The notes under the pieces were generated by a model. The model was given only the letters and a program-made list of their open reading frames with translations, was not told where the DNA came from and searched no databases. Positions 12,075-48,243 of a DNA stretch of 50,780 nt are shown here, piece after piece; position 1 is the stretch's first letter; each line of letters begins with the position of its first letter. The stretch comes from Nanobdellota archaeon (lineage in GTDB: Archaea > Nanobdellota > Nanobdellia > Woesearchaeales > SM23-78), in contig JAHJQO010000006.1 in assembly GCA_018819305.1 (NCBI GenBank), positions 1-50,780 of the forward strand, read 5' to 3'. The translations under genes were made by a program, and so were the position numbers.

Positions 12075-12083
12075 CTTTTTTTA

Positions 12084-12213: not shown

Positions 12214-12229
12214 ATTTATTTAATATTAA

Positions 12230-12568
12230 TTAAAAATTTATTTCATCCTTATTTTTTGTCTTCCCAATCATACCAACAGGAAGTTCAACTACATACTTTG
12301 ACTTAGCCTTAGGCGAATAATAAGCAAATGGCTTGAAATTCTTTTTTATATCAACAACTTTATTGTTCTTGTCAAGGAACAAGACATCAATTGGAAAAAA
12401 CACAAACCACATGTGCAAGGGTGTAAGTTGTTCTTTATCAAAATCAAAAACCAGTCCAAAGTCTGGCTTTCTGAACCTGAACATCAGACCAAAGGCTTTG
12501 CAAAAAATGCTTTTGCAGATTCTGGTTTTCTTTATTATATTTATTTTTTTTGTAATATTGCGTATCAT
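12230..12568 (-). CDS. DUF192 domain protein
   Basis: GLMFR..GLVFDF..LHMWFVFFPIDVLFLD..KYVVELP signature. Confidence 0.9.
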   Translation of the reverse strand: MIRNITKKINIIKKTRICKSIFCKAFGLMFRFRKPDFGLVFDFDKEQLTPLHMWFVFFPIDVLFLDKNNKVVDIKKNFKPFAYYSPKAKSKYVVELPVGMIGKTKNKDEINF

Positions 12569-12578
12569 TTTTATATCT

Positions 12579-13547
12579 TCAACACTCAGTATAATTCAAA
12601 TCATCGACTTCGTATTTCGAAGTATGATTTAAATCTATCTTAAACCAATTTGGCATGTTGTCAACATTGCAGGCAAGCTCTTCATATCCTGATATATTGC
12701 TGAATAATATATAATCAACAATACTTTTTGAAGAACTGTAATTAGCATCCTGGAGTTTCATCTCATCAATATTTACAATGCTTTCTATTCCATATGGCGA
12801 GCTTGAAAAGTTTCCTTTCATTCTCATTAAAAAGCTCGGGGCTTCTGTATTAGTTGCATAGTATGAATTATTAATATGCCTCATTAAATTATCTGTATTA
12901 TTATCCGTGCTGTTCACAAAGTCAGTAATGTTTGTGATTCTGATTGTATTGGGCACTCTTCCATAAGTTGCTACGCTATACACTGGGTCTCTGATGTTAA
13001 TCAAGGAAACACTTGTATTATAGTCTCTTGTGAAATCCCATGCAGCCAAACCTTTCTGGTCTGTAATATTTATTCTTGTAGTTGCAATAACTTTCACACT
13101 CCAGGGAGAATCATGATAAAGTGTTATATCTGTAACATTCATGTCTATATCTAATCCTATCTGGCCTGCAATGACTTTTAGCTTGTCAAGATAATCAAGA
13201 TAAGATGAATTCTCCAGTATTTCAACTGTTGTCCCATTCACAGTCCCATTATAAAACGCTAATCTAAACACTTCTTCTGTGTTATTGAGATATGCTCCTG
13301 ACTGTGCAACAAAATCCTCAACAGCAATCAGGGCTCTAAAGCCAGAAATATATATTGACCTATCTGAGTCTGAATCTATATCTTTGATAAATCCATCTAT
13401 GGTTCTTATCCTTGTCTCAGCTACTTCCTGTCTTTCAGTGTAGCCATATTCTTTGTATGCCAAAAAAACAAATATCATTACCACTATAAATAAGGATGAA
13501 AGTAACAAGTAAAACATTCCTTTTTTGTTGATTTTTTTAAATCTCAT
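12579..13547 (-). CDS. Minor pilin-like protein with class III-type signal peptide
   Basis: MRFKKINKKG|MFYLLLSSLFIVVM; many NxS/T sequons; start at ATG 13547. Confidence 0.7.
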   Translation of the reverse strand: MRFKKINKKGMFYLLLSSLFIVVMIFVFLAYKEYGYTERQEVAETRIRTIDGFIKDIDSDSDRSIYISGFRALIAVEDFVAQSGAYLNNTEEVFRLAFYNGTVNGTTVEILENSSYLDYLDKLKVIAGQIGLDIDMNVTDITLYHDSPWSVKVIATTRINITDQKGLAAWDFTRDYNTSVSLINIRDPVYSVATYGRVPNTIRITNITDFVNSTDNNTDNLMRHINNSYYATNTEAPSFLMRMKGNFSSSPYGIESIVNIDEMKLQDANYSSSKSIVDYILFSNISGYEELACNVDNMPNWFKIDLNHTSKYEVDDLNYTEC

Positions 13548-13567
13548 TTTATTTTTCAGTTTATAAT

Positions 13568-25399: not shown

Positions 25400-27904
25400 T
25401 TATACGACAGTGTTTACTGTTATTGTGTTTAAATCAGCCACAATAACTTCAACTTCTGTTCCAGACAAGTCGTAGTCTTCGTAGTCAGCCATTACATAAC
25501 AAGCTCCTAGAGTTTCTTGTGCTTCGTAACCTGCTACAAGTAAAGCGTTTTTAGCTGCGAACAGCTTAATAATTGCTTTTCCTGGTTCAAATCCTTCTGC
25601 ACAGTTCTCTGGGTTTCCCATAAGTTCTGCTGCTACTGTGTTTGCACATGGACCACCTACAACAATTAAGTTCTCGCTACCTAATGCTGGTGCATCGGTA
25701 TCTAGAACTGCCAATCCTACAGCGATTGGGTTTATGTTTGTTGTCATAACAGAACCATCGCCACCACCTGAAACTGCGGTGATTGATCCCATGGTTACGA
25801 ATACTTGTCCATATCTCTGCACAAGTGGGTACTCAATCATTATTTCTTCGATTGAAGACGAACTGGTTGGTGTGTACTTTTCAATTGTTGCACCATACCT
25901 TGTCATTCTGTGCTCATACTTGTCGTCATCTAACTTCTCATACATAGTTCCATTCACAGTGCCTGCCAACTGGTTTGCAGTTGTAGTGTTGGACAGAGTT
26001 ACTTTGATAACTTCTGGTCCGTCTACAGACTCGTCAAAGTTTGATGCAATTGTTGTTACAGTTACATTCATTCCTGTGTATGCGAAACCGAGTGGTTCAG
26101 TGTTGTTTGCTGTTCCTGCTGTGTAGTTGAAAGTCTGTGTTCCGAAGTCAATGATTGCTCCACCTTTTGCTACAGCTTGTACTTCTGCACTGTCAATTGC
26201 TCCAGATGCGTCAAGGTCCATGGCTAATGAGTACTTTTCAGTTGCGTCTGCTGTGCTCTCATCATATACCCAAAAGTTGTGGCTTGCTCCTGCAACAATA
26301 AGTTCACCAGTGACTACACCTGTAGTGTTGATGTATGAAACAACAATTGTTCCTCCTGCAATGTCGTCGAAGGTTACAGTGCTATCTCCTGTACTCAATG
26401 ACTTATATCTCAACACATTAACGACTGCTTTGTCATCAGTGTCACTAGCTGCTCTGTCTCTGACAATAAAGTAGTCATCGTCTGAAATCCAAGTCTCGTT
26501 AGCAAGACCTTGAGTTATGTTGACTGTGTACGGCTCTGTAAAGATAAAGTCGTCATCATTGTCTCCATAAGCCCAACCTTTATGAGCGTCGGTCTTATCA
26601 GTTACTAATGGGATTGTGTATTCATCTCCATTTAAGTTTGTAAATTTCAAATCATAGCTATGAGATGAAACTGGGTCAAACTTAATCGTTGACATACCTG
26701 GGTTTGTTAGACCTGCATAGAAAATATCCCAATTGTCTCCGAGCAATCCTTCTGGCTCTGTCAAGTAAGCTTTTAGTCCTTCACCTGCTGGTACCCAAAG
26801 TTCGTCATCAGCTGTTAACTTATATTTAATATAGTTCAGCTTGATATCTCCAGATTCGTTGGTTGCTTTTAAAATCAGGAATGCATTATCAATCCTGTTG
26901 CCGCCAACTTTTACAACACCAGCTGCATAGGTTGTATCTGCATAATCAGTGTCTTGTAATTCCACTTTGTTTGCTCCTAAGTAGAATTCAACCAAACCTT
27001 CCCTTTGGTTTGTCAGGATTTCCTGGACACCAACTGTCACATCTGAACCTAGAAGTTCTGTTCTACCTTCAGCAAGCTCTTTAGTTAGCATACCGTTGAC
27101 ACTTAGCTTTGCTTTTTGGTCTGTACTGTCGATGAATACTGCAGTTACTTCATACTCTTTGCCGTCGATAGTGTATGTTTTGGTTTCACCATCTCTTAGG
27201 GTATCTGCTACTTCTCCGCCCATAAGGTCCAGAGTTAGCTTGACACCTGAAATCTTTGCATCCACAATGGTGTAAGGTATGCCCATTATGTTCAAGACTT
27301 CACTTTCAAAGTCAAGCAAATCTACACTGCTTGTGACTTCTGAAACTGCTCCTTCTGTGAATTCCATGTGGTATTCAAAGAATATTGCATCAGATGCGAT
27401 TTTCATGAAATCTGCAGATACATCTGTGTTACTGTCTTGTTCATAAGCAATACTCAATCCAGAGTTTTCAAATTTCAGGTATTGCTTCACAGGTGTTGTG
27501 CTGCTTCCTGATGTGAAAACACCAGATGATAGTCCGTCCAAGTCAGCGTCTGTAAAAGTTGTTTTTACAGATCCTAGAGCTTCCCCAAGATATGGGATGT
27601 CAGATCCTGTCTTGAATTCGGCTGAGTCACCGGTAACTGTCGTTGTTCCTGCCACACCAGGTACTTCTACTTCGCTGGTTACTGAAGCTGCTGCTTGTAG
27701 GCTTGCAGCCAAGTCAATCGCACCTACGACGTCTGAGGTAGCTGCATTAGCTCCCACGACGATTTTACCGTCGAAAACACCGTTTGCTACGAAAGGCGCA
27801 GGATAGTTGCCCAAGTCTGCTGCTGCTCCCATGATAGTGGCACCCAACATGGTTGTTCCAGCAACAAGAGCTGCTATCTTTTTTACTGTCTTTCTTATAT
27901 CCAT
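25400..27904 (-). CDS. S-layer protein (Methanococcales/Thermococcales-type N- and C-terminal domains)
   Basis: VKKIAALVAGTTMLGAT..DLGNYPAPFV..IVVGANAATSDVVGA; C-terminal NLIVVGGPCANTVAAEL..ALLVAGY; GGAGGTG SD. Confidence 0.9.
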   Translation of the reverse strand: MDIRKTVKKIAALVAGTTMLGATIMGAAADLGNYPAPFVANGVFDGKIVVGANAATSDVVGAIDLAASLQAAASVTSEVEVPGVAGTTTVTGDSAEFKTGSDIPYLGEALGSVKTTFTDADLDGLSSGVFTSGSSTTPVKQYLKFENSGLSIAYEQDSNTDVSADFMKIASDAIFFEYHMEFTEGAVSEVTSSVDLLDFESEVLNIMGIPYTIVDAKISGVKLTLDLMGGEVADTLRDGETKTYTIDGKEYEVTAVFIDSTDQKAKLSVNGMLTKELAEGRTELLGSDVTVGVQEILTNQREGLVEFYLGANKVELQDTDYADTTYAAGVVKVGGNRIDNAFLILKATNESGDIKLNYIKYKLTADDELWVPAGEGLKAYLTEPEGLLGDNWDIFYAGLTNPGMSTIKFDPVSSHSYDLKFTNLNGDEYTIPLVTDKTDAHKGWAYGDNDDDFIFTEPYTVNITQGLANETWISDDDYFIVRDRAASDTDDKAVVNVLRYKSLSTGDSTVTFDDIAGGTIVVSYINTTGVVTGELIVAGASHNFWVYDESTADATEKYSLAMDLDASGAIDSAEVQAVAKGGAIIDFGTQTFNYTAGTANNTEPLGFAYTGMNVTVTTIASNFDESVDGPEVIKVTLSNTTTANQLAGTVNGTMYEKLDDDKYEHRMTRYGATIEKYTPTSSSSIEEIMIEYPLVQRYGQVFVTMGSITAVSGGGDGSVMTTNINPIAVGLAVLDTDAPALGSENLIVVGGPCANTVAAELMGNPENCAEGFEPGKAIIKLFAAKNALLVAGYEAQETLGACYVMADYEDYDLSGTEVEVIVADLNTITVNTVV

Positions 27905-36794: not shown

Positions 36795-37319
36795 ATGAAA
36801 GCATTCCTCAGAAACACAATCATTCTTATTGCTCTGATTGTACTAGACCAAGTGCTTAAGTTCTTTATTGAATCCAAGAAGTTTTTTGTTGACCTTGGCA
36901 TTGTAAGTTTTCATTACATTACAAATACTGGTGCTAGTTTTGGAATATTTCAGAACAACAATGTTCTATTGGCCTGGGTGAGTATTATTGTTCTTGGTCT
37001 TATCATGCTGCTTGCAGACAAGATGAAAAAACAACATGCACTTCCAGTAGTTCTGATTGTTGCAGGCATTATTGGAAATCTTATTGACAGGGTTTTCAGA
37101 GGATTTGTAGTTGACTTCATAGATTTCAAGTTCTGGCCTGTGTTTAATATTGCAGACTCAGTTATTTGCATTGGCGTGATTTGGCTTGCAATTGTTATAA
37201 TTATTGATGATATTAAAGATTCTAAGAAGAAGGAAAATAAGCCTATAAAATTAAAAGCAAAAAAACATAAAAAGAAAAAAGTAAGGCCCTCGCCGATTGA
37301 GAGCAATTATAATCCTTAA
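36795..37319 (+). CDS. lspA: Signal peptidase II (lipoprotein signal peptidase)
   Basis: LDQVLK, NTGASFG, GNLIDR, VVDFID, FNIAD conserved boxes. Confidence 0.92.
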   Translation: MKAFLRNTIILIALIVLDQVLKFFIESKKFFVDLGIVSFHYITNTGASFGIFQNNNVLLAWVSIIVLGLIMLLADKMKKQHALPVVLIVAGIIGNLIDRVFRGFVVDFIDFKFWPVFNIADSVICIGVIWLAIVIIIDDIKDSKKKENKPIKLKAKKHKKKKVRPSPIESNYNP

Positions 37320-38815: not shown

Positions 38816-39550
38816 GTGGACTACAACAACACCTTGCAGGAAATAGGTTTCAAGCAAATAGAAGCAGAAATATATATTTATCTTCTGAAAAAAGGCTCTT
38901 CTTCACAGCAAAGAGTATCAGATGACACAGGAATTCTAAGGCAAACAGTCTATGACATGATGAACAAGATGGAACGAAAAGGTCAAATATCTGCATCAAA
39001 AAGAGGAAAGAGGAAAATATACTCTGCTGTAGATCCAAAAATATTATTAAGCAGACTAAAGGAAAAAGAAGAAAGCTTTTTGCAAATCCTGCCTGATTTA
39101 GAAAAAATAAAATCAATGAAAAAACCAGAGATTTTCAGTGAATCATTCATAGGAATCCCAGGGCTCAAAAACTTATTCAATCTTACTCTTCTTTCAAAAA
39201 CAGAAATACTCTGGCTGGCAAATATTAAACAACACATAAATCTTTTCAAAGATTATTACTGGCAAAACTATGCACTTAAAAGAGCAGAAAAAAAGATTCC
39301 TATAAAACTAATGATTGATTCAAAAACAAAGCTAAAAACATGGAGCACAAACAAAAAACTGCAAAGATATGCTAAGCAAAGCGATTTTGTTAATAATATT
39401 AACTCATCATTTGCAGTGTTTGACGATAAAATAATAATATATTCATTAGATCAAGACCAACCCTATGGTGTTTTCATACAAAACCCCACATTAAAAAATA
39501 TGTTTGAACAAATATTCATGCATCACTGGAATAATGCAAAAGAATTCTAA
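38816..39550 (+). CDS. TrmB family transcriptional regulator
   Basis: LQEIGF..EAEIYIYLLKKG..RQTVYD..YSAVDP wHTH; C-terminal FAVFDDKI..FEQIFMHHWNNA; GTG start. Confidence 0.88.
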   Translation: MDYNNTLQEIGFKQIEAEIYIYLLKKGSSSQQRVSDDTGILRQTVYDMMNKMERKGQISASKRGKRKIYSAVDPKILLSRLKEKEESFLQILPDLEKIKSMKKPEIFSESFIGIPGLKNLFNLTLLSKTEILWLANIKQHINLFKDYYWQNYALKRAEKKIPIKLMIDSKTKLKTWSTNKKLQRYAKQSDFVNNINSSFAVFDDKIIIYSLDQDQPYGVFIQNPTLKNMFEQIFMHHWNNAKEF

Positions 39551-41472
39551 ATCATCGGCACATCTCGTTCTGATTTGATTCCATAAACAAACAAATAATT
39601 CCATAAGATGCCGCGTTTCCTTTCTATTTTTACTGAGAAACCTGCTTTTCTAAAAATTGTTCTCAGCATTTCACGGTTTGATATCCATGGCGCATCTGGA
39701 AGGAACTTAAAGAAATTAATATAATCTACAAAGCAGATTCTTCCGCCTTCTGGCAGCAAACGATTCATCTGCAATAGTATTTTCTGATAATCCTGCATAT
39801 AACTCATCATTCCAACACTAAACACTGCATCAATATCCTTGACATCAGGATGAATTCTGTTAACTTGGTGAGGGTCATGAATAACTTCAACATGGCTTAT
39901 AAAATTCTTAGCCAGTCTTTTTTTCAGGATTTTTACATTTCTATGGCTCATGTCAGTAGCGTAGATTTTTCCTCTTGGACCAACTTCTTGTGCAAGATGC
40001 ATGGTTAATGTGCCAACACCCGAGCCATATTCAAGCAAATACTTTCCTTCCATATCCTTAAATAAATCTACTATTTTTTTTCTTATATGCTTTGGCAGGA
40101 GTATGTTTTCCATCCAAAGGGTGAGGCCTGCAAAATAATTTGAAAACCCAACTATTGCATCCGGATTATAAAAGAATATTAACAGCAGATAAATTGGAAT
40201 GCCAAACAGAATAAGTGAAACCATCCTGCCTAAAACTGACAAGGCTCCGCCTTCAAAATATGCCCATACAACAATTACTCCAAGATAAACCAATGAAACA
40301 ATTATCGGACCTATTTTTCCGAAAAAAACTTTGAAAGGTCTCTTAGCATTTGGCATTTTGAATCTGAGAATTGTGACTGAAAGCAGAACAGCAATATAAA
40401 CCAAAAGAGCTGTTGGCGTAAATAAACTAAGCAAAGCTTCATAATTGCCTGCTGTCAACAACAATATAAGGATAGCAACAATTGTCTGAAATATTATGGC
40501 TTTATGAGGAGTTCTTCTTTTTTCATGAACTGCTGCAAGCTGGGCAATGAATAATTTATCACGAGCCATGCCCAAAATAAGTCTTGGAGTTGAAATAATA
40601 ACTCCTGCTGCGGCGCCAATCAAGGACAGCACAATTCCCCAGCTAATTAATCTTGCTCCTCCTGCTCCAAATAATAATGCAGAAACTGATTGTATTGGTG
40701 CTGGCAAGTTTGCCAGTCTTGCCCAGGGAATAAGATTTAATGAAACAGCTGCAACTAAAATTGTAAGAACTCCTGCAATGAGTGTGGAAATAATTAATGC
40801 TCTGGGAATTATTTTTTCAGGGTTCTTGGTTTCTTCTGCTAAAAAAGATGCTTCTTCCCAGCCCATCAGGGCTTCAAGCATAAAAAACATGGCTGCAAAT
40901 ATGAGTATGAACGGTCCTGTGAATAATGGTGTTAAATTGTTAAATTGAAAATCAAAAATACCAGGAACTATGATTGAAACCAATACGCCCATTGTAATTA
41001 ATGCAAATATCATCAAGATAGCAGCACTTGCATCCACTCCCAGAAAAGCAATAAAATTTAGTACAAGAATTATTATTATAGCAACAACAATCTTTAAATC
41101 AATTCCAAAAATAGAGGTCTGAAGAGCAGCTGCAGGAAACAAATAATCCAAAGCAGCTATGATTGTTACTATCATTCCAATTGTAGCCATAAGCCATGTT
41201 ACCCATCCTACAAGAAAAGAAACAAATCTGCCATATGCTTGTTTTGAATACTCATAGACTCCTCCTGCTTTTGGAAACAAAGCTACAAGTTCTCCAAAGC
41301 ATCCAGCTACATAGAGGCTGAGAAGAATAACAAGAACCCATGCAATAAGAACTGCATTGCCCACTCTGGCAGCACCCAGTGATGTTCCAAAGAACATTCC
41401 AGTGCCTACCATTGCTGTTAGCAACAATGCCAGAATGGTCCAAAAGCCAAAACCTCTTTTTAACTCAGCCAT
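39547..41472 (-). CDS. APC-family amino acid permease fused to class I SAM-dependent methyltransferase domain
   Basis: ELKRGFG..VGTGMF, ELVALFPKAGGVYEY, LAEETKNPEKIIPRA, ~12 TM; then LLEYGSGVGTLT..VGPRGKIYATDMS. Confidence 0.85.
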   Translation of the reverse strand: MAELKRGFGFWTILALLLTAMVGTGMFFGTSLGAARVGNAVLIAWVLVILLSLYVAGCFGELVALFPKAGGVYEYSKQAYGRFVSFLVGWVTWLMATIGMIVTIIAALDYLFPAAALQTSIFGIDLKIVVAIIIILVLNFIAFLGVDASAAILMIFALITMGVLVSIIVPGIFDFQFNNLTPLFTGPFILIFAAMFFMLEALMGWEEASFLAEETKNPEKIIPRALIISTLIAGVLTILVAAVSLNLIPWARLANLPAPIQSVSALLFGAGGARLISWGIVLSLIGAAAGVIISTPRLILGMARDKLFIAQLAAVHEKRRTPHKAIIFQTIVAILILLLTAGNYEALLSLFTPTALLVYIAVLLSVTILRFKMPNAKRPFKVFFGKIGPIIVSLVYLGVIVVWAYFEGGALSVLGRMVSLILFGIPIYLLLIFFYNPDAIVGFSNYFAGLTLWMENILLPKHIRKKIVDLFKDMEGKYLLEYGSGVGTLTMHLAQEVGPRGKIYATDMSHRNVKILKKRLAKNFISHVEVIHDPHQVNRIHPDVKDIDAVFSVGMMSYMQDYQKILLQMNRLLPEGGRICFVDYINFFKFLPDAPWISNREMLRTIFRKAGFSVKIERKRGILWNYLFVYGIKSERDVPMI

Positions 41473-41647
41473 CTAAAATATTGATAATTTAAGGGATATA
41501 TAAATAATTCGGAATAGTTTGAAAAATTTCAGTTTGAATAGATAAACCAAAACATTTATATATAATGATAATAACTTATATAATATTTAAGCATTATACT
41601 GACTTCGAATTAAAAAAACAAAACGAAAAGTTTATATATAAATATAA

Positions 41648-41663
41648 TAAGTTATATAACTTA
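41648..41663. promoter_or_regulatory. Perfect 16-bp palindrome, putative operator of the HTH-fibre operon
   Basis: TAAGTTATATAACTTA between TATA box (41631) and ATG 41680. Confidence 0.5.
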
Positions 41664-41679
41664 GAAAGGTTATAAGAGC

Positions 41680-41865
41680 ATGCTTACAGAAAAAGAAATA
41701 CAAGTTCTAAAACTAAGAGCAGAAGGATTAATACAGATACAAGTAAGCAAAAAACTCAAAATAAGCCAAGCTGCAGTTTCTCATTTTGAAAAAAACGCTC
41801 TGAGAAAAATCAAAGAAGCAGAAGAAACTCTGCAAACAGCTAAAAAACTCAAAATCAAAAAATGA
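41680..41865 (+). CDS. Small Tfx/LuxR/sigma70-region-4-like HTH protein
   Basis: MLTEKEIQVLKLRAEGLIQIQVSKKLKISQAAVSHFEKNALRKI; ATGA overlap with next gene. Confidence 0.85.
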   Translation: MLTEKEIQVLKLRAEGLIQIQVSKKLKISQAAVSHFEKNALRKIKEAEETLQTAKKLKIKK

Positions 41866-43781
41866 AGCAAACAAATAAACAATTTGTTGATCCAGAAAAG
41901 CAAAAAGCTTTTCTGAAGCCTGAAGAAAATATACAAAAATTGGAAGAGACCAGGAAAGAAGTAATTAGGTTTACAAATGAATTAGATGAAAAGCTCAGGA
42001 CCCACCAGATAGACGGAATAGAATACCATGTCTTGGTCGACGAGAAACTTAATGGAAAGCACAAGGAAGAAATTATCAAATACATAGACAACAAAATAAT
42101 AGAAGAAAAAATCAAAATAAAACAGGGAGAACATGAACAAAGAAAAAAGAAAACAGCCCTAACCTTTAGCGCAGCAGCAATCGTGCTTGTCCTGCTTGTC
42201 ATTGTAGGAATTCTTTATACGACACCAGACGCACTCACAGGATTTACAACATTTGATAGAGAAGTGCAGGAAAGCATAGATTATAACAGAGTATTTGACC
42301 ATTACACAGAAACACCACTTAATATTTCCAATGTCACAAGCCTGAAAATAAGCGGAATCTTAGACGGAACAGGCGCAACAGTCAAACTCAGAGTTGGAGA
42401 TATAGAATATCTTATTGCTAACATTATTAATCAGCAAGAAGAAAGCCTGATTACTGGACTTGTTATAGCAGAAGAACCAGAATATGAAATTAATACAGAT
42501 AAAATAGAGTATGCATTAGGAGAAACAGCAACAATAACAATAATACCCGAAGCTGAAAATAAATCAATCTATGTATCTTATGGTGGAGAAACACAAAAAC
42601 TTGAAGGAGACACATATCTGACTGAAAACATTGGAGAGCATCAAGTTGTCGGCATAATAGTATTAACAAATGACATAATAAGATTAGAAACCAACTTCAC
42701 AGTCATTAATCAGACAATAAATGAAACAAACACCACAATACCAGATACAACAAACACGACAAATGAAACAATTTCAGAAGAGACAACCACAGAAATTTAT
42801 ACTTTTGAAGCATTGTGCACAGACACATGCAACCTAAATGAAAACAGCAATCCTGTCTTAATAGTTGAACTGGAAGAAGGAAGCACATTAACAATAACTA
42901 AGATAATAGTAGTTCAAAACAAAGAAAACAATGCACCAGAACAAACACAAACAATACCTGACATAACAATTACAACAACACAAACAGCAACCTTGAATCT
43001 GGATGAATACTTTACAGATGCTGACGGAGACTTAGTAGCCTATGACCTGAATGAGATAGCTGAAATAACTTCAGAATTCGAGCAAGAAGTACTGACAATC
43101 AGTTCAGAGACACCAGGAATATATATTGCATACATCTATGCAACAGACGGAGACAAACTAACAACCAGCAACACCTTCCAAATCACAATTACAGAAGTTG
43201 TAATTGAAGAAACCAACCAGACAAACCAAACCATACCTGAAATAAATCAAACAATTAATGAGACAAATGCAACAGAAACAAACGTTTCTGAACATCCAGC
43301 AGAGCTGAATGAAACTGCACCAGCAGAAGAAATAGTGCTAACAGACCCTTGCAGTAATCCAGATCCAAATTTAAGACCTCCTGAATGTATCGAAGGAAAA
43401 GAAGAAAAATACTTTGTCTTGGAAAATGTGTTTTTAAAAGATAATAATAGAGGAAACAGTGCAAGAATAACTGCTCTGGGTAATATGATAATCAAAGGAG
43501 ATCTAATAGATAATTCAATACTAGACCCTGAAAGAAATGATTTCAAAGTAACTATGACGAATGAAGATTATGAAGATGTTCCTATTGCATGGATAGACTC
43601 AGATAACGGAAACTTACATCTTACAGGAGTACTATATGAAGAAGATTTCTTCCTGACTCCAACACCTAATGCATTTGTAATTCAAAATAAGAGAAATGTA
43701 AACCTGGCATATTTTGACAGAAACACAGGAGACTTGCATATTAAAGGAAACCTGATTCAGCAAAGAGAAACAATAGAATGA
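41862..43781 (+). CDS. Membrane-anchored extracellular protein with cadherin/Ig-like domain
   Basis: Cytoplasmic N-terminus, one TM, LTGF motif, NNAPEQ..LNLDEYFTDADGD..ATDG Ig/cadherin-like unit, NxT-rich linkers, C-terminal GNLHL/GDLHIKG repeats. Confidence 0.7.
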   Translation: MKQTNKQFVDPEKQKAFLKPEENIQKLEETRKEVIRFTNELDEKLRTHQIDGIEYHVLVDEKLNGKHKEEIIKYIDNKIIEEKIKIKQGEHEQRKKKTALTFSAAAIVLVLLVIVGILYTTPDALTGFTTFDREVQESIDYNRVFDHYTETPLNISNVTSLKISGILDGTGATVKLRVGDIEYLIANIINQQEESLITGLVIAEEPEYEINTDKIEYALGETATITIIPEAENKSIYVSYGGETQKLEGDTYLTENIGEHQVVGIIVLTNDIIRLETNFTVINQTINETNTTIPDTTNTTNETISEETTTEIYTFEALCTDTCNLNENSNPVLIVELEEGSTLTITKIIVVQNKENNAPEQTQTIPDITITTTQTATLNLDEYFTDADGDLVAYDLNEIAEITSEFEQEVLTISSETPGIYIAYIYATDGDKLTTSNTFQITITEVVIEETNQTNQTIPEINQTINETNATETNVSEHPAELNETAPAEEIVLTDPCSNPDPNLRPPECIEGKEEKYFVLENVFLKDNNRGNSARITALGNMIIKGDLIDNSILDPERNDFKVTMTNEDYEDVPIAWIDSDNGNLHLTGVLYEEDFFLTPTPNAFVIQNKRNVNLAYFDRNTGDLHIKGNLIQQRETIE

Positions 43782-46700
43782 GAAAAGAAAAAACAACTTG
43801 GAAAAAAGCATTTATGATTTTGATGATGTTAATTATAACACTATCAATTGTAATTGCTGCAAATGATCCTGGCCACGACACATTATATGTTGAGCAAACT
43901 GGTGATTCAGAAATAACAGGTAATCTGAATATAAGCGGCAATCTGAGTGTAGAAGATGTTATTTTTTCAGGAGTAGACCTTGATGTAAGAGGAGATGGAG
44001 TCCAAGCTGCAGGAAGCAATAATCAGATTATTGGAACCAGCAATGCATTATCAATCCAAAGTTTAGGTCACATATATATTAATACATTAACTGGAACAAC
44101 AAGCATGATATATCTTGGTGACGGCGCAGACACAGTTAATCTGAATATTACTGGAGCACTATATATTCAGAGCGGAACAGCGACTATCGGCGGCAGTGCG
44201 ATTTGTTTGGCAAATGGAACTAATTGTCCAAGCGCACTCGGAGGAGCAAACGTAACAGGCCCTGCATCATCAACAGACAATGCAATAGCAAGATGGAATG
44301 GAGCAGGAGGAAATGTATTGCAAAACAGCGCAGTAACAATAGATGATTCAAACAATCTCAGAACAGCAGGCGACATCAATACCTCAGGAGGAGACATCTG
44401 CATAGAAGGAGGACAATGCCTAAGCCAAATGGGAAGCGGAACAGGAACTGTAACAAGCGTAACAGCAGGAGACGGAATGACACAAACAGGAACAGCAACA
44501 ATAAACCCAACACTAAATGTAGTAAGCCACGCAGGAACAGCAGGAAGCATAGGAACAATAAACATAGGAGCAGACGCAATAGGAACAAACCTAGGAACAA
44601 GCAGCACAACAGCATACAGAGGAGACTACGGAAACACAGCATACACCGACAGACTAAAATGGGACGGAGGATCAACCGGACTAACAGCAAGCACAGGAAG
44701 AACAAGCCTAGGAGCCACCACAATCGGAAGCAACCTATTTAATTTAACCAACCCCTCAGCAATAACATTCCTAAGAATAAACGCAGACAACACAGCAGAC
44801 ACACTAAACGCAGCCGACTTCAGAACAGCAATAGGAGCAGGAACAGGAGGAGGAAGCGTAACAAGCGTAGCCATGACAGTACCAACAGGACTAACCATAA
44901 GCGGAAGCCCAATAACAACAAGCGGAACACTAGCACTAAGCCTAACAAGCGGATACACAATACCAACAACAACCAACATAACCAACCTAGGAACAGCATA
45001 CACACACAGCCAAATAGCAGGAGGAGACTCAGTACACGTAAGCACAACAGAAAACACAAACTGGGACACAGCCTACACCCACAGCCAAATAGCAGGAGGA
45101 GACTCAGTCCACGTAAGCACAACAGAAAACACAAACTGGGACACAGCATACACCGACAGACTAAAATGGGACGGAGGTTCAACCGGACTAACAGCAAGCA
45201 CAGGAAGAACAAGCCTAGGAGCCACCACTATCGGAAGCAACCTATTTAATTTAACCAACCCTTCAGCAATAACATTCCTAAGAATAAACGCAGACAACAC
45301 AGCAAGCACACTAAACGCAGCCGACTTCAGAACAGCAATAGGAGCAGGAACAGGAGACGGAAGCGGAAGCGTAACAAGCGTAGCAATGACAGTACCAACA
45401 GGACTAACCATAAGCGGAACACCAATAACAACAAGCGGAACACTAGCACTAAGCCTAACAGCAGGATACACAATACCAACAACAACCAACATAACCAACC
45501 TAGGAACAGCATACACACACAGCCAAATAGCAGGAGGAGACTCAGTCCACGTAAGCACAACAGAAAACACAAACTGGGACACAGCCTACACCGACAGACT
45601 AAAATGGGACGGAGGATCAACCGGACTAACAGCAAGCACAGGAAGAACAAGCCTAGGAGCCACCACTATCGGAAGCAACCTATTTAATTTAACCAACCCC
45701 TCAGCAATAACATTCCTAAGAATAAACGCCAACAACACAGCAGACGCACTAAACGCAGCCGACTTCAGAACAGCAATAGGAGCAGGAACAGGAGGAGGAA
45801 GCGTAACAAGCGTAGCAATGACAGTACCAACAGGACTAAGCATAAGCGGAACACCAATAACAACAAGCGGAACACTAGCACTAAGCCTAACAGCAGGATA
45901 CACAATACCAACAACAACCAACATAACCAACCTAGGAACAGCATACACCCACAGCCAAGCAACAACAAACGTCCACGGACTAACATTCACAGCAGAAGGA
46001 AGCGGAGGAGGTCTAGACGCAGACACACTAGATGGTATGGACAGCTCTGCTTTTGGTGACGCAACAGCAGCAAACCAAAACACAATCATAGGATACATAG
46101 ACACAGAAATAGCAGCAATCCTCGACGACACAGGAACCTCAGGAGTAGTACTAGCAAACGACGCCATAACAGCAGCCAAAATAGCAGCCGACGCCATAGG
46201 AGCATCCGAAGCAGGATTCCTAACAGACAGCATAGGATTCGCAGGAGCAGACATCGCAACCATCAAAGGATACATAGACACAGAAATAGCAGCAATCCTC
46301 GACGACACAGGAACCTCAGGAGTAGTAATAGCAAACGACGCAATAACAGCAGCAAAAATAGCAGCAGATGCAATAGGAGCATCAGAAGCAGGATTCCTAA
46401 CAGACAGCATAGGATTCGCAGGAGCAGACATCGCAACCATCAAAGGATACATAGACACAGAAATAGGTGCTAACACTGACTCTGCTTCAATGAGTAGTAG
46501 TTTGTTTGCTGGACAGCAAGCTATTTATGATAATATTTCAAAATCTCGATCTGAAAGCTTTACTTCAAGCGGCACCTGGAACCAACCTAACGGCGTAACT
46601 CTTGTCTGGGTCACCATGATTGGTGGTGGAGGCGGCGGAGGCGGCGGAGATGGTTGGGGAAACCAAGATGGTGGTGGTGGAGGCGGTGCTGGTATGAAGT

Positions 46701-47296
46701 ACTATCGCTATCCTGTAGAAGTATCAGGTGATGTTACAGTTACTGTTGGTGCTGCAGGTTCTGGTGGAGCAGGAGGTAATGGTGGCGCTTCAATGAACGG
46801 AACTAGTGGTGGAAATACATCTTTTGGTTCACTAGTTGCAGAAGGTGGTAAATTTGGCGGCGGCGTCTGGACTGCTGCAGCAGGTCTGGGTGGTAATGGA
46901 GGCGGATATGGAGGACAGAACCTGGGAGGTGCTGGTGGTACTGGAAACGGTGCCGATCCTATCCACCTAACTAGTTATGCAATTGGTGGTGCGGGTGGTG
47001 GTGGTGGAAGTGAAGCAGGTGATAGTGGTCAGCATGGCGGATCTAACCTTTTTCACACTAAGGGACTGGCAGCAGGTGCACCGACAGGAGGCCTTGGAGG
47101 TGGAGGTGGAGGAGGAGCCTCTGCTATGGGAAACGGAGGTAATGGAGGAGCTGCCACCGGGGGTAATGGTGCTGCAGGAACTGGCTATGGTGCTGGAGGT
47201 GGAGGAGGAGCATATTACCCAGGAGGACAAGCTGGAAATGGTGGAGCCGGAAGTGGTGGTTACATTCTTGTTGAATGGATTGGTCCTGCTAATTAG
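43778..47296 (+). CDS. Secreted repeat-rich fibre/adhesin with tail-fibre-like modules and Gly-rich C-terminal domain
   Basis: Signal peptide, three ~145-aa repeats, 25-aa repeats, two 59-aa repeats, LDADTLDG, then FTSSGTW..VWVTMIGGGGGGG..GGAGSGGYILVEW. Confidence 0.75.
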   Translation: MRKEKTTWKKAFMILMMLIITLSIVIAANDPGHDTLYVEQTGDSEITGNLNISGNLSVEDVIFSGVDLDVRGDGVQAAGSNNQIIGTSNALSIQSLGHIYINTLTGTTSMIYLGDGADTVNLNITGALYIQSGTATIGGSAICLANGTNCPSALGGANVTGPASSTDNAIARWNGAGGNVLQNSAVTIDDSNNLRTAGDINTSGGDICIEGGQCLSQMGSGTGTVTSVTAGDGMTQTGTATINPTLNVVSHAGTAGSIGTINIGADAIGTNLGTSSTTAYRGDYGNTAYTDRLKWDGGSTGLTASTGRTSLGATTIGSNLFNLTNPSAITFLRINADNTADTLNAADFRTAIGAGTGGGSVTSVAMTVPTGLTISGSPITTSGTLALSLTSGYTIPTTTNITNLGTAYTHSQIAGGDSVHVSTTENTNWDTAYTHSQIAGGDSVHVSTTENTNWDTAYTDRLKWDGGSTGLTASTGRTSLGATTIGSNLFNLTNPSAITFLRINADNTASTLNAADFRTAIGAGTGDGSGSVTSVAMTVPTGLTISGTPITTSGTLALSLTAGYTIPTTTNITNLGTAYTHSQIAGGDSVHVSTTENTNWDTAYTDRLKWDGGSTGLTASTGRTSLGATTIGSNLFNLTNPSAITFLRINANNTADALNAADFRTAIGAGTGGGSVTSVAMTVPTGLSISGTPITTSGTLALSLTAGYTIPTTTNITNLGTAYTHSQATTNVHGLTFTAEGSGGGLDADTLDGMDSSAFGDATAANQNTIIGYIDTEIAAILDDTGTSGVVLANDAITAAKIAADAIGASEAGFLTDSIGFAGADIATIKGYIDTEIAAILDDTGTSGVVIANDAITAAKIAADAIGASEAGFLTDSIGFAGADIATIKGYIDTEIGANTDSASMSSSLFAGQQAIYDNISKSRSESFTSSGTWNQPNGVTLVWVTMIGGGGGGGGGDGWGNQDGGGGGGAGMKYYRYPVEVSGDVTVTVGAAGSGGAGGNGGASMNGTSGGNTSFGSLVAEGGKFGGGVWTAAAGLGGNGGGYGGQNLGGAGGTGNGADPIHLTSYAIGGAGGGGGSEAGDSGQHGGSNLFHTKGLAAGAPTGGLGGGGGGGASAMGNGGNGGAATGGNGAAGTGYGAGGGGGAYYPGGQAGNGGAGSGGYILVEWIGPAN
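44636..45958 (+). repeat. Three near-identical ~432-438-bp coding repeats with a nested 75-bp duplication
   Basis: Units start at 44636, 45143 and 45581; 75-bp copies at 44993 and 45068. Confidence 0.92.
46091..46466 (+). repeat. 177-bp (59-aa) coding tandem repeat, 2 copies plus a partial third
   Basis: GGATACATAGACACAGAAATAG at 46091, 46268 and 46445. Confidence 0.92.
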
Positions 47297-47313
47297 ATAT
47301 ACTTTGCAATTGA

Positions 47314-48243
47314 ATGAATAATATGAGCAAGAAAAAGAGAAAATTAATTAATAGAAATATCATCATCTCTTTTGCAGTTGGTATTCTATTCATGTTACTT
47401 ATTGTTTTAGCTTTTAATCTTTTAAAATCTGGTCAGGCAGAATTTAATGAGGAAGAGGATTTGTCAAGAGGCTTGAATCTTATCTTCTATGCTGACAGGT
47501 ATGAATCTCAGGAAGCTTTTGATAATGACATAATTTTTTTAATGAGTGAATTGAAAAAAAGAGAGCCTTGGGGTTCATATAATAATTTCAACATTTACAA
47601 AATTAATCCTATGAATGAGAAAGAGATTTGTGTTGTAGAAACTGAAAACCTGAGAAAACCAAGTCTTCGCTGCTCAGAAGAAATCAATAATTACCTCCAA
47701 AAAATAAATGTTAAGAGATTTAAAGTGATTGTTTTATCAAGGCAAGAATTTGAATCATGGGCTAATGTTGCCAGGTTAAAAAATTCAGGAGTTTTTTTTA
47801 GTGTTTCAAAAAGACTAAACAAAGACAACTCTGAGAGTTATGGAACCTTATTCACACACCTTATAGGGCATGCTTTTGGTCTTAAAGATGAAGAAATTTA
47901 TGTGGTTGCTAAATCAGGAGGTGCTCCTCACACGCCAGACGGACCAAACTGCGCACCAGACATAGAAACAGCAGAAAGTTGGTGGGGTGATCTAGCAAAA
48001 GAGTTCATTGACGTGGGAATATACAAAGGTTGCTGTGGAAACAAGGAATACATTAAGCCTGCCTCCAATTCAGTAATGAATCTTAATGAAATTAGATCTT
48101 CTGATGTTGATTATGGTCCTGTTTCAGAAAGATATCTAAGAAACTTTTTAAAATTCTGCTTTTCAGGTAAGAAATATTCTTATAATGATAATATGGATTT
48201 CTTTGAAAGATATCCTGAGTTTAAAGAATGCCTTAATGATTAA
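47314..48243 (+). CDS. Membrane-anchored M64-like metallopeptidase homolog lacking the catalytic Glu
   Basis: N-terminal TM; EPWGSYNNFNIY; THLIGHAFGLKDEE in place of HExGH; PNC, GCC, NSVMN, YGPVS. Confidence 0.6.
   Translation: MNNMSKKKRKLINRNIIISFAVGILFMLLIVLAFNLLKSGQAEFNEEEDLSRGLNLIFYADRYESQEAFDNDIIFLMSELKKREPWGSYNNFNIYKINPMNEKEICVVETENLRKPSLRCSEEINNYLQKINVKRFKVIVLSRQEFESWANVARLKNSGVFFSVSKRLNKDNSESYGTLFTHLIGHAFGLKDEEIYVVAKSGGAPHTPDGPNCAPDIETAESWWGDLAKEFIDVGIYKGCCGNKEYIKPASNSVMNLNEIRSSDVDYGPVSERYLRNFLKFCFSGKKYSYNDNMDFFERYPEFKECLND

What the first reader, a model, noticed from the sequence alone, without database searches (positions are those of the whole stretch)
41648..48243. Candidate undescribed surface-fibre system: operator, HTH regulator, membrane anchor, tail-fibre-like secreted adhesin and peptidase homolog
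Seen: four co-oriented genes, the first three joined by ATGA stop/start overlaps, behind a perfect palindrome. The 1172-aa product has a Sec-type signal peptide, but its body consists of modules (GSVTSVAMTVPTGL..PITTSGTLAL, TAYTDRLKWDGG, AYTHSQ, LDADTLDG, DAITAAKIAADAIGASE) ending in a Gly-rich tip. From recall, such modules occur in tail fibres and virion proteins of aquatic tailed phages. No capsid, terminase or portal gene lies nearby. Inference: a host-dependent DPANN cell has domesticated phage fibre modules into a secreted, probably trimeric, host-attachment fibre, displayed by the upstream TM-anchored protein and autoregulated by the HTH.
Basis: partly seen in the sequence, partly recalled or inferred. 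Interest (0 to 1): 0.85.

Follow-up and report, generated by a model that had tools for sequence, protein, structure and literature searches.

The report
Archaeal fibre cassette built from phage parts
A small archaeon carries a conserved three-gene unit (a DNA-binding regulator, a membrane-anchored stalk protein and a secreted fibre largely assembled from bacteriophage tail-fibre modules) that probably forms a surface attachment fibre, while the fourth gene flagged with it is an unrelated neighbour.

Summary
There are four co-oriented ORFs. ATGA overlaps lie at 41862 and 43778, and a perfect 16-bp palindrome lies at 41648-41663. The 1172-aa product has a signal-like N-terminus and a Gly-rich tip.

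The real unit has three genes, not four. In 48 of 56 related loci, a homologue of the 639-aa membrane protein sits directly upstream of a fibre with the same N-terminal domain (signal peptide, then A-NDPGHD-LY). A small DNA-binding gene overlaps that membrane gene by 4 nt. The 309-aa gene is in 0 of 65 related loci; it is an M64-like protein with close relatives labelled Patescibacteria.

The fibre body is phage-like. One 117-aa module matches 496 stretches of IMG/VR contigs, the best 80 at 61-90% identity. The tip resembles the trimeric tail fibre gp24 of cyanophage Pam3. The N-terminal domain was not found in viral contigs, and the neighbourhood is chromosomal.

Divergence of the fibre's N-domain tracks the membrane protein's C-terminal domain (partial r 0.68) and not its Ig-like stalk. 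This fits a plug-and-socket anchor, but DNA adjacency could explain it too. Binding, trimer state and host attachment remain untested. I found no published description.

The parts
41622..41641 (+). Archaeal BRE/TATA-like promoter block (ACGAAAA-G-TTTATATATAAA)
   Evidence: Aligns with an invariant GCGAAA-N-ATTTAAATA block in 10 of 10 upstream regions of type-A cassettes. Promoter function is inferred from the archaeal BRE/TATA consensus, which I recall rather than tested.
41648..41663 (.). Perfect 16-bp palindrome TAAGTTATATAACTTA, the candidate operator between the TATA box and the start codon
   Evidence: The core TTATATAACT is invariant or nearly so in 10 aligned upstream regions. Cassettes with a different regulator type carry a different palindrome, TACTTA...TAAGTA.
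41669..41673 (.). Third GTTAT half-site (ATAAC-N8-GTTAT with the right arm of the palindrome)
   Evidence: The T positions of (G/A)TTAT are invariant in alignment A8.
41680..41865 (+). Gene 1: 61-aa GerE/LuxR-type (sigma-70 region-4-like) HTH protein, matching the N-terminal half of Tfx-family proteins
   Evidence: Pfam GerE 36 bits (cut-off 23.5). NCBIfam Tfx 44.5 bits, below its 60.25 cut-off, covering profile positions 7-64 of 137. It overlaps gene 2 by 4 nt. All 23 HTH genes detected in related cassettes overlap gene 2 by 4 nt.
41862..42152 (+). Gene 2, cytoplasmic N-terminal helical region (aa 1-97)
   Evidence: AlphaFold helices 20-46, 52-62 and 68-120. A K/R cluster precedes the TM helix. 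The motif LxxGxITxxE looks SHOCT-like by eye, but only 1 of 37 family members gives a weak Pfam hit (DUF1707, E 0.0034).
42153..42221 (+). Gene 2, single transmembrane helix (about aa 98-120)
   Evidence: Hydrophobic stretch ALTFSAAAIVLVLLVIVGILY, inside the long model helix 68-120.
42234..43196 (+). Gene 2, four beta-sandwich (Ig/cadherin-like) domains forming an extracellular stalk (aa 125-445)
   Evidence: Model pLDDT is mostly above 90. Foldseek hits are tandem-Ig proteins: dystroglycan 9c3c (E 1.8e-7), S-layer SbsB 4aq1 and adhesin SraP 4m00. Pfam hits are weak: Big_9 in 3, He_PIG in 2 and Cadherin_4 in 2 of 37 members.
43344..43781 (+). Gene 2, conserved C-terminal domain (aa 495-639; two Cys, WIDSxTGNLHLxG and TGDLHxxGN motifs), the proposed socket for the fibre
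   Evidence: Most conserved part of the family (alignment A6, mean column identity 51%). No PDB or Pfam relative was found. Its divergence tracks that of the fibre N-domain.
43778..43858 (+). Gene 3, signal-peptide-like N-terminus (aa 1-27)
   Evidence: Read from the sequence. Small residues at -3/-1 before the conserved A-NDPGHD are seen across alignments A3 and A7. Cleavage was not tested.
43859..44227 (+). Gene 3, family-defining N-terminal domain (aa 28-150: NDPGHDTLYV, GDSxITGNLNISGN, LNITG, ICLxNGTNC), the proposed plug
   Evidence: 196 cluster representatives out of 1.84 billion have E<=1e-3 and 108 have E<=1e-30. In the strong hits listed the domain sits at the extreme N-terminus. All 15 genome hits are archaeal. 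The NDPGHD part was not found in IMG/VR. No PDB or Foldseek relative was found.
44228..44635 (+). Gene 3, proximal shaft (aa 151-286)
   Evidence: aa 149-204 match a hypothetical protein of Mycobacterium phage Boilgate (E 3e-7). aa 119-165 match 3 IMG/VR loci weakly.
44636..45958 (+). Gene 3, three copies of a ~146-aa module (TAYTDRLKWDGG...GSVTSVAMTVPTGL...PITTSGTLAL...AYTHSQ...TTENTNWD), plus one extra 25-aa unit
   Evidence: Tandem repeats. 496 IMG/VR stretches were confirmed; the best 80 are 61-90% identical, most of them over almost the whole module. The viral proteins examined sit in tail-fibre gene clusters next to endolysins.
45995..46477 (+). Gene 3, LDADTLDG motif and 59-aa repeats (x2.2)
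   Evidence: 26 IMG/VR loci were confirmed at 32-91% identity.
46466..47296 (+). Gene 3, distal tip resembling Pam3 gp24 (TNF-like plus glycine-rich domain)
   Evidence: Pfam Gly_rich_2, aa 931-1167, E 2.1e-10. PDB 7yfw/7ypx, E 0.004, over aa 897-1047. phrog_863 at 5.6e-16 and phrog_6202 at 2.3e-5. In gp24 these domains form the receptor-binding end of a trimer (PMC9608196, passages read).
47314..48243 (+). Gene 4: membrane-anchored M64-like protein with HLIGHAFGLKDEE in place of HExxH. It is an adjacent gene, probably co-transcribed here, but not part of the conserved cassette.
   Evidence: 0 of 15 and 0 of 50 related loci carry it. It has 147 homologues, 46-60% identical among the 120 listed. 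All 7 organism names given are Patescibacteria groups, and some homologues carry PF09471. Leu replaces the catalytic Glu in 12 of 13 aligned members.

Best explanation
This is a chromosomal, self-regulated three-gene operon for a surface fibre.

1. Gene 1, a small HTH protein, probably binds the inverted repeats between the TATA box and the start codon and so controls the operon.
2. Gene 2 is inserted in the membrane with its N-terminus inside the cell. It raises a stalk of four Ig-like domains that ends in a conserved C-terminal domain.
3. Gene 3 is exported through Sec and loses its signal peptide. It has no membrane or cell-wall anchor of its own.
4. I propose that gene 3's conserved N-terminal domain plugs into the C-terminal domain of gene 2. 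The rest of gene 3 would then project outward as a probably trimeric fibre. That part is a shaft of modules shared with bacteriophage tail fibres, ending in a Pam3-gp24-like glycine-rich tip, and it would bind a ligand on another cell.

Shown: the gene order, the overlaps, the conservation, the domain architecture, the phage kinship of the modules and the co-divergence of the two proposed contact domains.

Inferred: operator binding, signal-peptide cleavage, the plug-socket contact, the trimer, and the adhesive or host-attachment role.
For: Cassette conservation:
- A gene 2 homologue lies directly upstream of a fibre with the NDPGHD N-domain in 48 of 56 fibre ORFs by my automated criterion. 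29 of these have an exact 4-nt overlap (built).
- All 23 detected HTH genes overlap gene 2 by 4 nt.
- 12 further cassettes have a MazE/AbrB-type gene in the same place.
- A second cassette lies in the same genome (C22; gene 2 is 68% identical by BLASTP).

Promoter and operator:
- 10 of 10 type-A upstream regions share the BRE/TATA block and TTATATAACT...GTTAT.
- Type-B cassettes carry a different palindrome.

Anchor reading:
- Gene 3 ends in ...YILVEWIGPAN, with no hydrophobic tail.
- Gene 2 has one TM helix and tandem Ig-like domains.
- Over 528 pairs of 33 cassettes, fibre N-domain identity correlates with gene 2 C-domain identity: r 0.72, partial r 0.68, with 0 of 2000 permutations as high. 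It does not correlate with the stalk (partial r 0.07).
- The two cassettes of this genome are 76% identical in the cytoplasmic part and in the stalk, but only 43% in the C-domain and 48% in the fibre N-domain.
- In 3 of 3 further loci examined, the same C-domain ends a giant surface protein, and the next gene encodes a protein with a signal-peptide-like N-terminus.

Fibre nature:
- Gly_rich_2, Pam3 gp24 and tail PHROGs.
- 496 viral stretches carry module A.
- Other family members end in Peptidase_S74 (7 of 68) or carry YadA_head repeats (7 of 68) (names). I recall both as trimer-forming modules.

Chromosomal setting:
- Ribosomal proteins S7 and S8e, GINS, enolase and an S-layer protein share the window, and no virion family is present.
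- GC3 is 0.30, against 0.24-0.33 for other genes.
Against: - No direct evidence of binding exists. The two co-diverging domains are encoded by adjacent DNA, so co-inheritance of one recombination block would give the same correlation without any contact.
- Related loci are not independent. Several come from the same or near-identical organisms, for example L063, L064 and L066.
- Eight of 56 fibres lack an adjacent gene 2 by my criterion. Two of these (L048, L085) do have one outside my distance filter. In L059, L061 and L100 the HTH directly precedes the fibre, so the fibre can exist without an adjacent gene 2.
- The N-domain model is only moderately confident (pLDDT 72, pTM 0.49) and mostly coil.
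- No signal-peptide predictor, trimer prediction or expression data were available.
- The cassette is rare and patchy. Strong N-domain matches occur in 9 of 401 genomes sampled from the phylum and in 4 of 201 from the order. It cannot therefore be a general attachment device of the group.
Confidence: 0.5

Rival explanations
1. The fibre is secreted or held by something else, such as the S-layer. Gene 2 would then be a separate co-expressed surface protein, or a folding, export or assembly helper comparable to the tail-fibre chaperones that phages encode next to their fibres. It would not be the anchor. The co-divergence would simply reflect adjacent DNA moving together.
For: Pam3 gp24 needs a separately encoded chaperone to fold and trimerise (PMC9608196, passages read). 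The co-diverging segments are contiguous in the DNA. Some fibres lack an adjacent gene 2.
Against: Gene 2 is large, membrane-anchored and built like a stalk, unlike the small soluble chaperone described in that paper. It has no PHROG match. Its C-domain also ends giant surface proteins that precede secreted proteins.
Confidence: 0.25
2. Gene 1 and gene 2 form a transmembrane signalling pair resembling a sigma/anti-sigma pair. The cytoplasmic part of gene 2 would hold the DNA-binding protein at the membrane and release it when the ectodomain or fibre is engaged. This could hold in addition to the anchor model.
For: There is an invariable 4-nt overlap of a small DNA-binding gene with gene 2 (23 of 23). 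The HTH resembles sigma-70 region 4. Gene 2 has a conserved cytoplasmic helical region. There is a weak DUF4179 hit at the TM region (E 0.74).
Against: Three different regulator types occupy the first position: a GerE-like HTH, a Sigma70_r4_2-like HTH and a MazE/AbrB fold. The cytoplasmic region of gene 2 does not co-vary with regulator type (coefficient 0.005 over 528 pairs). The window and its paralogue are 76% identical there yet have different regulators. No anti-sigma domain was detected.
Confidence: 0.1
3. The cassette is a piece of an archaeal virus or other mobile element, for example an envelope or spike module or a provirus remnant, rather than a cellular organelle.
For: The fibre body is made of phage modules. 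The distribution is patchy and some genomes hold several copies. A Bro-N protein lies 0.7 kb downstream. The first gene is sometimes a MazE/AbrB-type protein.
Against: No capsid, portal, terminase, integrase or replication family appeared in the 34 window ORFs scanned. The NDPGHD N-domain was not found in 2.9 million IMG/VR contigs. Codon usage matches the genome. The paralogous cassette keeps the same divergent neighbour gene in three loci (L026, L092, L094). The sequence is identical in the unique parts across 4 runs from 3 studies.
Confidence: 0.08

Closest known systems
Tail fibre gp24 of cyanophage Pam3 (PDB 7YPX, 7YFW)
   Same: [quoted passage not shown] In gp24 this is the receptor-binding end of a trimer (PMC9608196, passages read).
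   Different: gp24 is 280-289 aa with an alpha-helical N-terminal domain that docks on a baseplate, and it needs chaperone gp25. Here the tip ends a 1172-aa exported protein in a cell. No baseplate genes are present, and the downstream gene is an M64-like protein, not a chaperone.
Modular tail fibres of uncultivated tailed phages (IMG/VR contigs; phrog_18345, phrog_697, phrog_863)
   Same: They share the ~117-aa shaft module at 61-90% identity (best 80 of 496 confirmed stretches). They also share the AYTHSQ/TTENTNWD unit and the 59-aa repeat. The overall logic is the same: a conserved attachment end and an exchangeable distal end.
   Different: The viral proteins examined start with a different N-terminus (MASxxKIKRS...GELAYS) and lie beside tape-measure or endolysin genes. 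The archaeal proteins start with a signal peptide and the NDPGHD domain, and follow a membrane protein. Only 4 of the 80 loci were inspected, 2 of them with PHROGs.
Trimeric autotransporter adhesins (YadA type) and other fibrillar adhesins
   Same: They are long repetitive surface fibres with an adhesive head. 7 of 68 proteins sharing the N-domain region carry YadA_head repeats. The stalk of gene 2 resembles the Ig stalks of SraP and of S-layer proteins.
   Different: No beta-barrel translocator or sortase/archaeosortase signal was seen (and the C-terminal sequence). The anchor would be a separate protein.
Tfx / GerE-LuxR small HTH regulators of archaea
   Same: Gene 1 passes Pfam GerE and aligns with the HTH half of Tfx. 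It sits behind inverted repeats next to a BRE/TATA block.
   Different: It is only 61 aa and lacks the C-terminal half of Tfx, scoring below the NCBIfam cut-offs. In related cassettes it is replaced by other DNA-binding folds.
IgA peptidase M64 family (for gene 4 only)
   Same: Some homologues carry PF09471 or the name 'IgA Peptidase M64'. The motif HxxGHxFGLxDE is conserved.
   Different: The catalytic Glu of HExxH is Leu in 12 of 13 aligned members. The window protein itself has no Pfam M64 hit at E<=1. It is not linked to the cassette.

Membership tests
Phage tail fibre with glycine-rich receptor-binding tip (Pfam Gly_rich_2; Pam3 gp24) | Glycine-rich domain above the Pfam gathering score | tested here: met
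   41.4 bits against a cut-off of 24.3, aa 931-1167.
Phage tail fibre with glycine-rich receptor-binding tip (Pfam Gly_rich_2; Pam3 gp24) | [quoted passage not shown] | tested here: met
   E 0.0038 and 0.0041 for 7yfw and 7ypx, over aa 897-1047. The match is weak and compositionally biased.
Phage tail fibre with glycine-rich receptor-binding tip (Pfam Gly_rich_2; Pam3 gp24) | Part of a virion: encoded among tail/baseplate genes, with an N-terminal baseplate-docking domain | tested here: not met
   No virion families in 34 window ORFs. The N-terminus is a signal peptide plus a domain not found in IMG/VR.
Phage tail fibre with glycine-rich receptor-binding tip (Pfam Gly_rich_2; Pam3 gp24) | Homotrimer | not tested
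A trimer is inferred only from homology.
Phage tail fibre with glycine-rich receptor-binding tip (Pfam Gly_rich_2; Pam3 gp24) | Dedicated fibre chaperone encoded downstream | tested here: not met
   The downstream gene is M64-like and has no PHROG match.
GerE/LuxR-type HTH; Tfx family | HTH domain above the Pfam GerE cut-off | tested here: met
   36 bits against 23.5.
GerE/LuxR-type HTH; Tfx family | Full-length Tfx architecture (about 137 aa) above the NCBIfam cut-off | tested here: not met
   44.5 bits against 60.25. Only profile positions 7-64 are matched.
ECF sigma / anti-sigma pair | Sigma regions 2 and 4, an anti-sigma domain in the membrane partner, and a partner-specific contact | tested here: not met
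   Only a region-4-like HTH of 61 aa is present. No anti-sigma domain was found. There is no co-variation of regulator type with the cytoplasmic region of gene 2.
Archaeal type IV pilin-like proteins | Class III signal peptide: a short charged leader, cleavage before the hydrophobic stretch, and a hydrophobic N-terminus retained in the mature protein | tested here: not met
   Read from the sequence. The hydrophobic stretch precedes the conserved small-x-small site and the polar NDPGHD motif. The definition of the class is recalled.
Trimeric autotransporter adhesins | C-terminal membrane-anchor (translocator) domain | tested here: not met
   No such Pfam hit. The protein ends in the glycine-rich domain.
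Peptidase M64 (gene 4) | HExxH zinc site with catalytic Glu | tested here: not met
   HLIGH in the window protein. Leu is nearly invariant in the 13-sequence alignment; only the copy from handle G157 has HEFGH.
Peptidase M64 (gene 4) | Pfam PF09471 match | tested here: inconclusive
   No hit for the window protein at E<=1. PF09471 is precomputed for some of the 120 listed homologues.

The most novel reading that the evidence does not exclude
Some DPANN archaea have a previously undescribed surface appendage made of two proteins. One is a membrane-anchored Ig-like stalk whose C-terminal 'socket' domain holds the other. That other protein is an exported fibre with an archaea-specific 'plug' domain fused to shaft and tip modules taken from bacteriophage receptor-binding proteins. 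Paralogous cassettes in one genome would have diverged precisely at the plug and the socket, so that each stalk holds its own fibre. Swapping the distal phage modules would retarget the episymbiont to new partner cells, as phages change host range. Because the shaft modules are shared with phages of bacteria, some of these archaea might attach to bacteria.
Probability: 0.3. Interest if true: 0.85.

Novelty: new variant of a known kind. Interest (0 to 1): 0.62.

Why it matters
How ultrasmall DPANN archaea recognise and hold on to partner cells is largely unknown. A groundwater study saw pili-like appendages between ultrasmall and host cells but did not name the proteins (PMC7906910, passages read).

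This cassette gives a concrete, testable candidate. It has a defined regulator site, a stalk, and a fibre whose distal end is related to a solved phage receptor-binding domain.

It also shows extensive sharing of fibre modules between bacteriophages and archaeal cells (61-90% identity over 117 aa). In addition it defines two orphan domains with no solved relative (the fibre N-domain and the stalk C-domain) whose co-divergence can be tested directly.

If the plug-socket reading fails, the result is still a well-delimited new archaeal gene family. It also corrects the four-gene proposal.

Tried and rejected
Leads that gave nothing:
- Complex prediction of gene 2 aa 495-639 with fibre aa 28-175, each given as an alignment, returned 'no answer' (ipSAE 0.00 in two runs, controls not run). 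It counts neither for nor against binding.
- Foldseek of the fibre N-domain model against the PDB gave no match at E<=0.001. The pdb_via_wide library was not on the machine.
- Profile searches of the PDB with the stalk C-domain (A6) and the fibre N-domain (A7) gave 0 hits and 1 chance-level hit.
- hhalign of A6 against A7 showed no homology (probability 4%).
- ESM Atlas look-ups for both domains gave only scores below 0.9. These are leads only.
- tblastn of the fibre against 50,697 cultured-phage records gave one short hit. The phage kinship is therefore visible in uncultivated viral contigs, not in cultured phages, at that sensitivity.
- Sequencing runs: no RNA holder was listed. Contigs from 4 DNA runs do not bridge the repeat region, so the repeat copy number (1172 aa or 969 aa) is unresolved.
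- The SHOCT-like reading of the gene 2 cytoplasmic helix is seen by eye, but only 1 of 37 members gives a weak Pfam hit. I do not claim it.
- The sigma-70-type promoter and hairpin-terminator scan does not apply to archaea and was not used, except to note that there is no hairpin in the gene 3-4 gap.

Literature:
- Five full-text searches found no description of the motif or the cassette. They were on DPANN/Woesearchaeota with tail fibre, adhesin or surface-protein terms, and on NDPGHD, DPGHDTLY and NDPGH anywhere.
- The preprint 10.1101/2025.02.15.638363 (passages read) does not bear on it.
- Supplementary tables of DPANN comparative-genomics papers, which I did not and could not open, might list these families.

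Rejected ideas:
- A four-gene system, because gene 4 is absent from all related loci.
- Recent horizontal import of the fibre gene, because its GC3 equals the genome's.
- A regulator-specific contact with gene 2.

The MAG titles 'Methanosarcinales' and 'Methanobacteriota' on 4 of 15 loci were not checked for mis-binning. I draw no host inference from them.

Full report
**What is in the window.**

The four ORFs are as described:
- a 61-aa protein at 41680-41865;
- a 639-aa protein at 41862-43781;
- a 1172-aa protein at 43778-47296;
- a 309-aa protein at 47314-48243.

The first two junctions are ATGA overlaps. The third is a 17-nt gap with no terminator-like site.

The perfect palindrome TAAGTTATATAACTTA lies at 41648-41663. 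On its own it is only mildly unusual: there are 3 such palindromes in the window, and 2.9% of shuffles of the AT-rich spacer produce one.

The rest of the window is ordinary archaeal chromosome. It holds ribosomal proteins S7 and S8e, a diphthamide synthesis protein, GINS, enolase, arginase, an S-layer protein and PilB/PilC-like genes. No virion family appeared among the 34 ORFs scanned. A Bro-N protein is the only virus-flavoured neighbour.

**The four proteins.**

Gene 1 passes Pfam GerE and matches only the HTH half of Tfx-family proteins.

Gene 2 has no Pfam family. An AlphaFold model from 37 homologues (mean pLDDT 81) shows, in order:
- a cytoplasmic helical hairpin;
- one long helix containing the TM segment;
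- four beta-sandwich domains;
- a low-complexity Asn/Thr-rich linker;
- a compact C-terminal domain.

Foldseek finds tandem-Ig proteins for this model, such as dystroglycan, the SbsB S-layer protein and the SraP adhesin.

Gene 3 starts with a signal-peptide-like segment and then a domain marked by NDPGHDTLYV. After that comes repetitive shaft: three ~146-aa modules and 2.2 copies of a 59-aa unit. It ends in a glycine-rich domain that passes Pfam Gly_rich_2. [quoted passage not shown] In gp24 these domains form the receptor-binding end of a trimer that needs a separate chaperone (PMC9608196, passages read).

Gene 4 has an N-terminal TM segment and the motif HLIGHAFGLKDEE.

**Which genes belong together.**

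I used the fibre's N-terminal domain as a probe.
- A scan of one genome per species found 15 loci, all in archaeal MAG records. Their titles were Woesearchaeota (7), Nanoarchaeia (3), Methanosarcinales (3), Methanobacteriota (1) and 'uncultured archaeon' (1).
- A metagenome scan gave 50 loci, of which 39 carry the N-domain.

Results across these loci:
- Of 56 fibre ORFs, 48 have a gene 2 homologue directly upstream by my criterion, 29 with an exact 4-nt overlap.
- Two of the 8 misses (L048, L085) do have a gene 2 homologue, just outside my distance filter.
- In L059, L061 and L100 the HTH gene directly precedes the fibre.
- Upstream of gene 2 there is always a small DNA-binding gene where sequence is available. 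Among 37 complete cases, 16 are GerE-like (type A), 7 are Sigma70_r4_2-like (type B), 12 are MazE/AbrB-like (type C) and 2 are unassigned.
- All 23 HTH genes overlap gene 2 by 4 nt.
- Gene 4 is in none of the 15 plus 50 loci.

The same genome holds a second cassette on contig C22. It has a type-B regulator, and its gene 2 is 68% identical by BLASTP. These loci are not independent samples; several are near-duplicates.

**Gene 4.**

It has 147 homologues at E<=0.01, and the 120 listed are 46-60% identical. All 7 organism names given are Patescibacteria groups, and some homologues carry PF09471 or the name 'IgA Peptidase M64'. In a 13-sequence alignment the Glu of HExxH is Leu in all but one member. 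In the window's order it was found in 12 of 201 genomes, and weakly. It is a neighbour, probably co-transcribed here, but not part of the system.

**Promoter and operator.**

Ten type-A upstream regions align with an invariant GCGAAA-N-ATTTAAATA block, which matches the archaeal BRE/TATA consensus as I recall it. About 10 nt downstream lies TTATATAACT(T/A)A-N-(G/A)TTAT. In the window, the palindrome and a third GTTAT half-site (41669-41673) occupy this block, 16 nt before the ATG. Type-B cassettes instead carry TACTTA...TAAGTA palindromes. A cis-element that changes with the regulator type supports the operator reading. Binding itself was not tested.

**Phage kinship of the fibre body.**

- Module A (aa 287-405) matched 546 stretches in IMG/VR, of which 496 were confirmed. 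The best 80 are 61-90% identical, most of them over almost the whole module.
- The AYTHSQ/TTENTNWD unit gave 8 loci.
- The 59-aa repeat region gave 26 loci.
- In the contigs I inspected, the matching proteins lie in tail modules. They follow a tape-measure protein (L038), hit 'tail fiber protein' PHROGs (L033, L143), or sit in a run of fibre genes ending with an endolysin (L167, L143).
- Only 9 viral loci were inspected in any detail: 5 of the 8 and 4 of the 80.
- In the wider protein database, 2094 proteins share the body modules. They combine them with Peptidase_S74, Collar, Mtd_N, Gp53-like_C, Phage_fiber_2, YadA_head, Dockerin and TIG domains.
- Cultured phages gave only one short hit.

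By contrast, the NDPGHD part of the N-domain was not found in IMG/VR. Only aa 119-165 matched weakly, in 3 loci.

The N-domain family is small: 196 of 1.84 billion cluster representatives at E<=1e-3 and 108 at E<=1e-30. In the strong hits listed, the domain sits at the extreme N-terminus of proteins up to 2205 aa.

The fibre gene's raised GC comes from its amino-acid composition. Its GC3 is 0.30, like its neighbours, so it is long resident in this genome.

**Distribution.**

Strong N-domain matches occur in 4 of 201 genomes sampled from the order. In the phylum sample they occur in 9 of 401, with 3 weaker matches. All are in the same order and cluster in a few families.

The paralogous cassette keeps the same divergently transcribed neighbour in L026, L092 and L094. 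This points to vertical inheritance within a clade. The stretch is held by four groundwater metagenome runs from three studies, with no differences in the non-repeat parts.

**How it probably works.**

The fibre has no anchor of its own. The stalk protein has a TM helix and is always next to the fibre.

I compared 33 cassettes pairwise, giving 528 pairs.
- Identity in the fibre N-domain correlates with identity in the gene 2 C-domain: r 0.72, partial r 0.68 after removing the stalk and the cytoplasmic part, with 0 of 2000 label permutations as high.
- It does not correlate with the stalk (partial r 0.07).
- The two cassettes of this genome are 76% identical in the cytoplasmic part and in the stalk. 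They are only 43% identical in the C-domain and 48% in the fibre N-domain.

The same C-domain ends giant surface proteins in three other genomes. Each is followed by a gene for a protein with a signal-peptide-like N-terminus (3 of 3 examined).

This is the pattern expected if the C-domain is a socket for the fibre's N-terminal plug. It would also arise if the two adjacent DNA segments simply travel together.

Regulator type does not co-vary with the cytoplasmic part of gene 2. This argues against an anti-sigma-like contact.

A trimeric fibre is inferred from the gp24-like tip. It is also suggested by family members that end in Peptidase_S74 or carry YadA_head repeats (7 each of 68). That these are trimer-forming modules is my recollection, not a test.

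**Comparison and verdict.**

The closest known objects are phage tail fibres with exchangeable distal modules, gp24 of Pam3 for the tip, and bacterial fibrillar adhesins. The fibre fails the defining test of a phage fibre, because it is not part of a virion and has a different attachment end. It also fails the tests for autotransporter adhesins and type IV pilins.

Five literature searches found no description. Supplements were not seen.

I rate it a new variant of a known kind: a cellular fibrous adhesin built from phage receptor-binding modules, with a conserved and undescribed regulator-stalk-fibre cassette and two orphan domains.
- The cassette and the module kinship are well supported.
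- The anchoring contact is plausible but unproven.
- The host-attachment role is inference.

Noticed in passing
window 47314-48243: The M64-like family of gene 4 has Leu in place of the catalytic Glu (HLxGH) in 12 of 13 aligned members. The 120 listed homologues are 46-60% identical to the window protein, and all 7 organism names given are Patescibacteria groups. It may be a conserved pseudo-peptidase or atypical metalloprotein shared between ultrasmall bacteria and archaea.
   Followed up: partly
G000:C22:1-3042 (locus L026): A second, paralogous cassette lies in the same genome. It has a different regulator (107 aa, Sigma70_r4_2-like), and its fibre gene is cut by the contig end.
   Followed up: partly
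window 44663-46437: Another assembly encodes a 969-aa version of the fibre that lacks one 146-aa module and one 59-aa repeat. Short-read contigs from 4 runs break up in this region. The cause could be repeat-number variation or assembly collapse.
   Followed up: partly
L214 (G007:C6), L215 (G173:C7), L216 (G076:C15): The C-terminal domain of gene 2 also ends giant proteins of 2100-2600 aa. In each case the next gene encodes a protein with a signal-peptide-like N-terminus. The pairing may be more general than the NDPGHD family.
   Followed up: partly
L042, L043, L046, L051: Cassettes also occur on short contigs of MAGs titled Methanobacteriota or Methanosarcinales. This could be mis-binning, gene transfer or true presence in possible host lineages. 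I did not check.
   Followed up: no
window 6799-8121 and 9001-10653: PilC-like (T2SSF) and PilB-like (T2SSE) genes are followed by several large ORFs without a Pfam family (10758-16333). This is a type IV pilus-like locus in the same window.
   Followed up: no
window 25400-27904 and 23417-25300: An S-layer-like protein (S_layer_C) lies next to a DUF11/CARDB surface protein. In L027 and L064, a large ORF with a signal-peptide-like N-terminus lies divergently upstream of a type-C cassette; it was not annotated with any tool.
   Followed up: no
window 39547-41472 (- strand): An amino-acid permease is fused to a C-terminal SAM-methyltransferase domain.
   Followed up: no
window 36795-37319: A lipoprotein signal peptidase (Peptidase_A8, SPase II) homologue is present in an archaeal genome.
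   Followed up: no
window 28485 and 33210: These are the two other perfect 16-bp palindromes in the window.
   Followed up: no
L026 3239-4225, L092 2795-3742, L094 2613-3566: The same ORF (N-terminus ...KKDLEKQGYR..G.HSA.K.CLW.KKS) is divergently transcribed from the cassette in three loci. It was not annotated with any tool.
   Followed up: no
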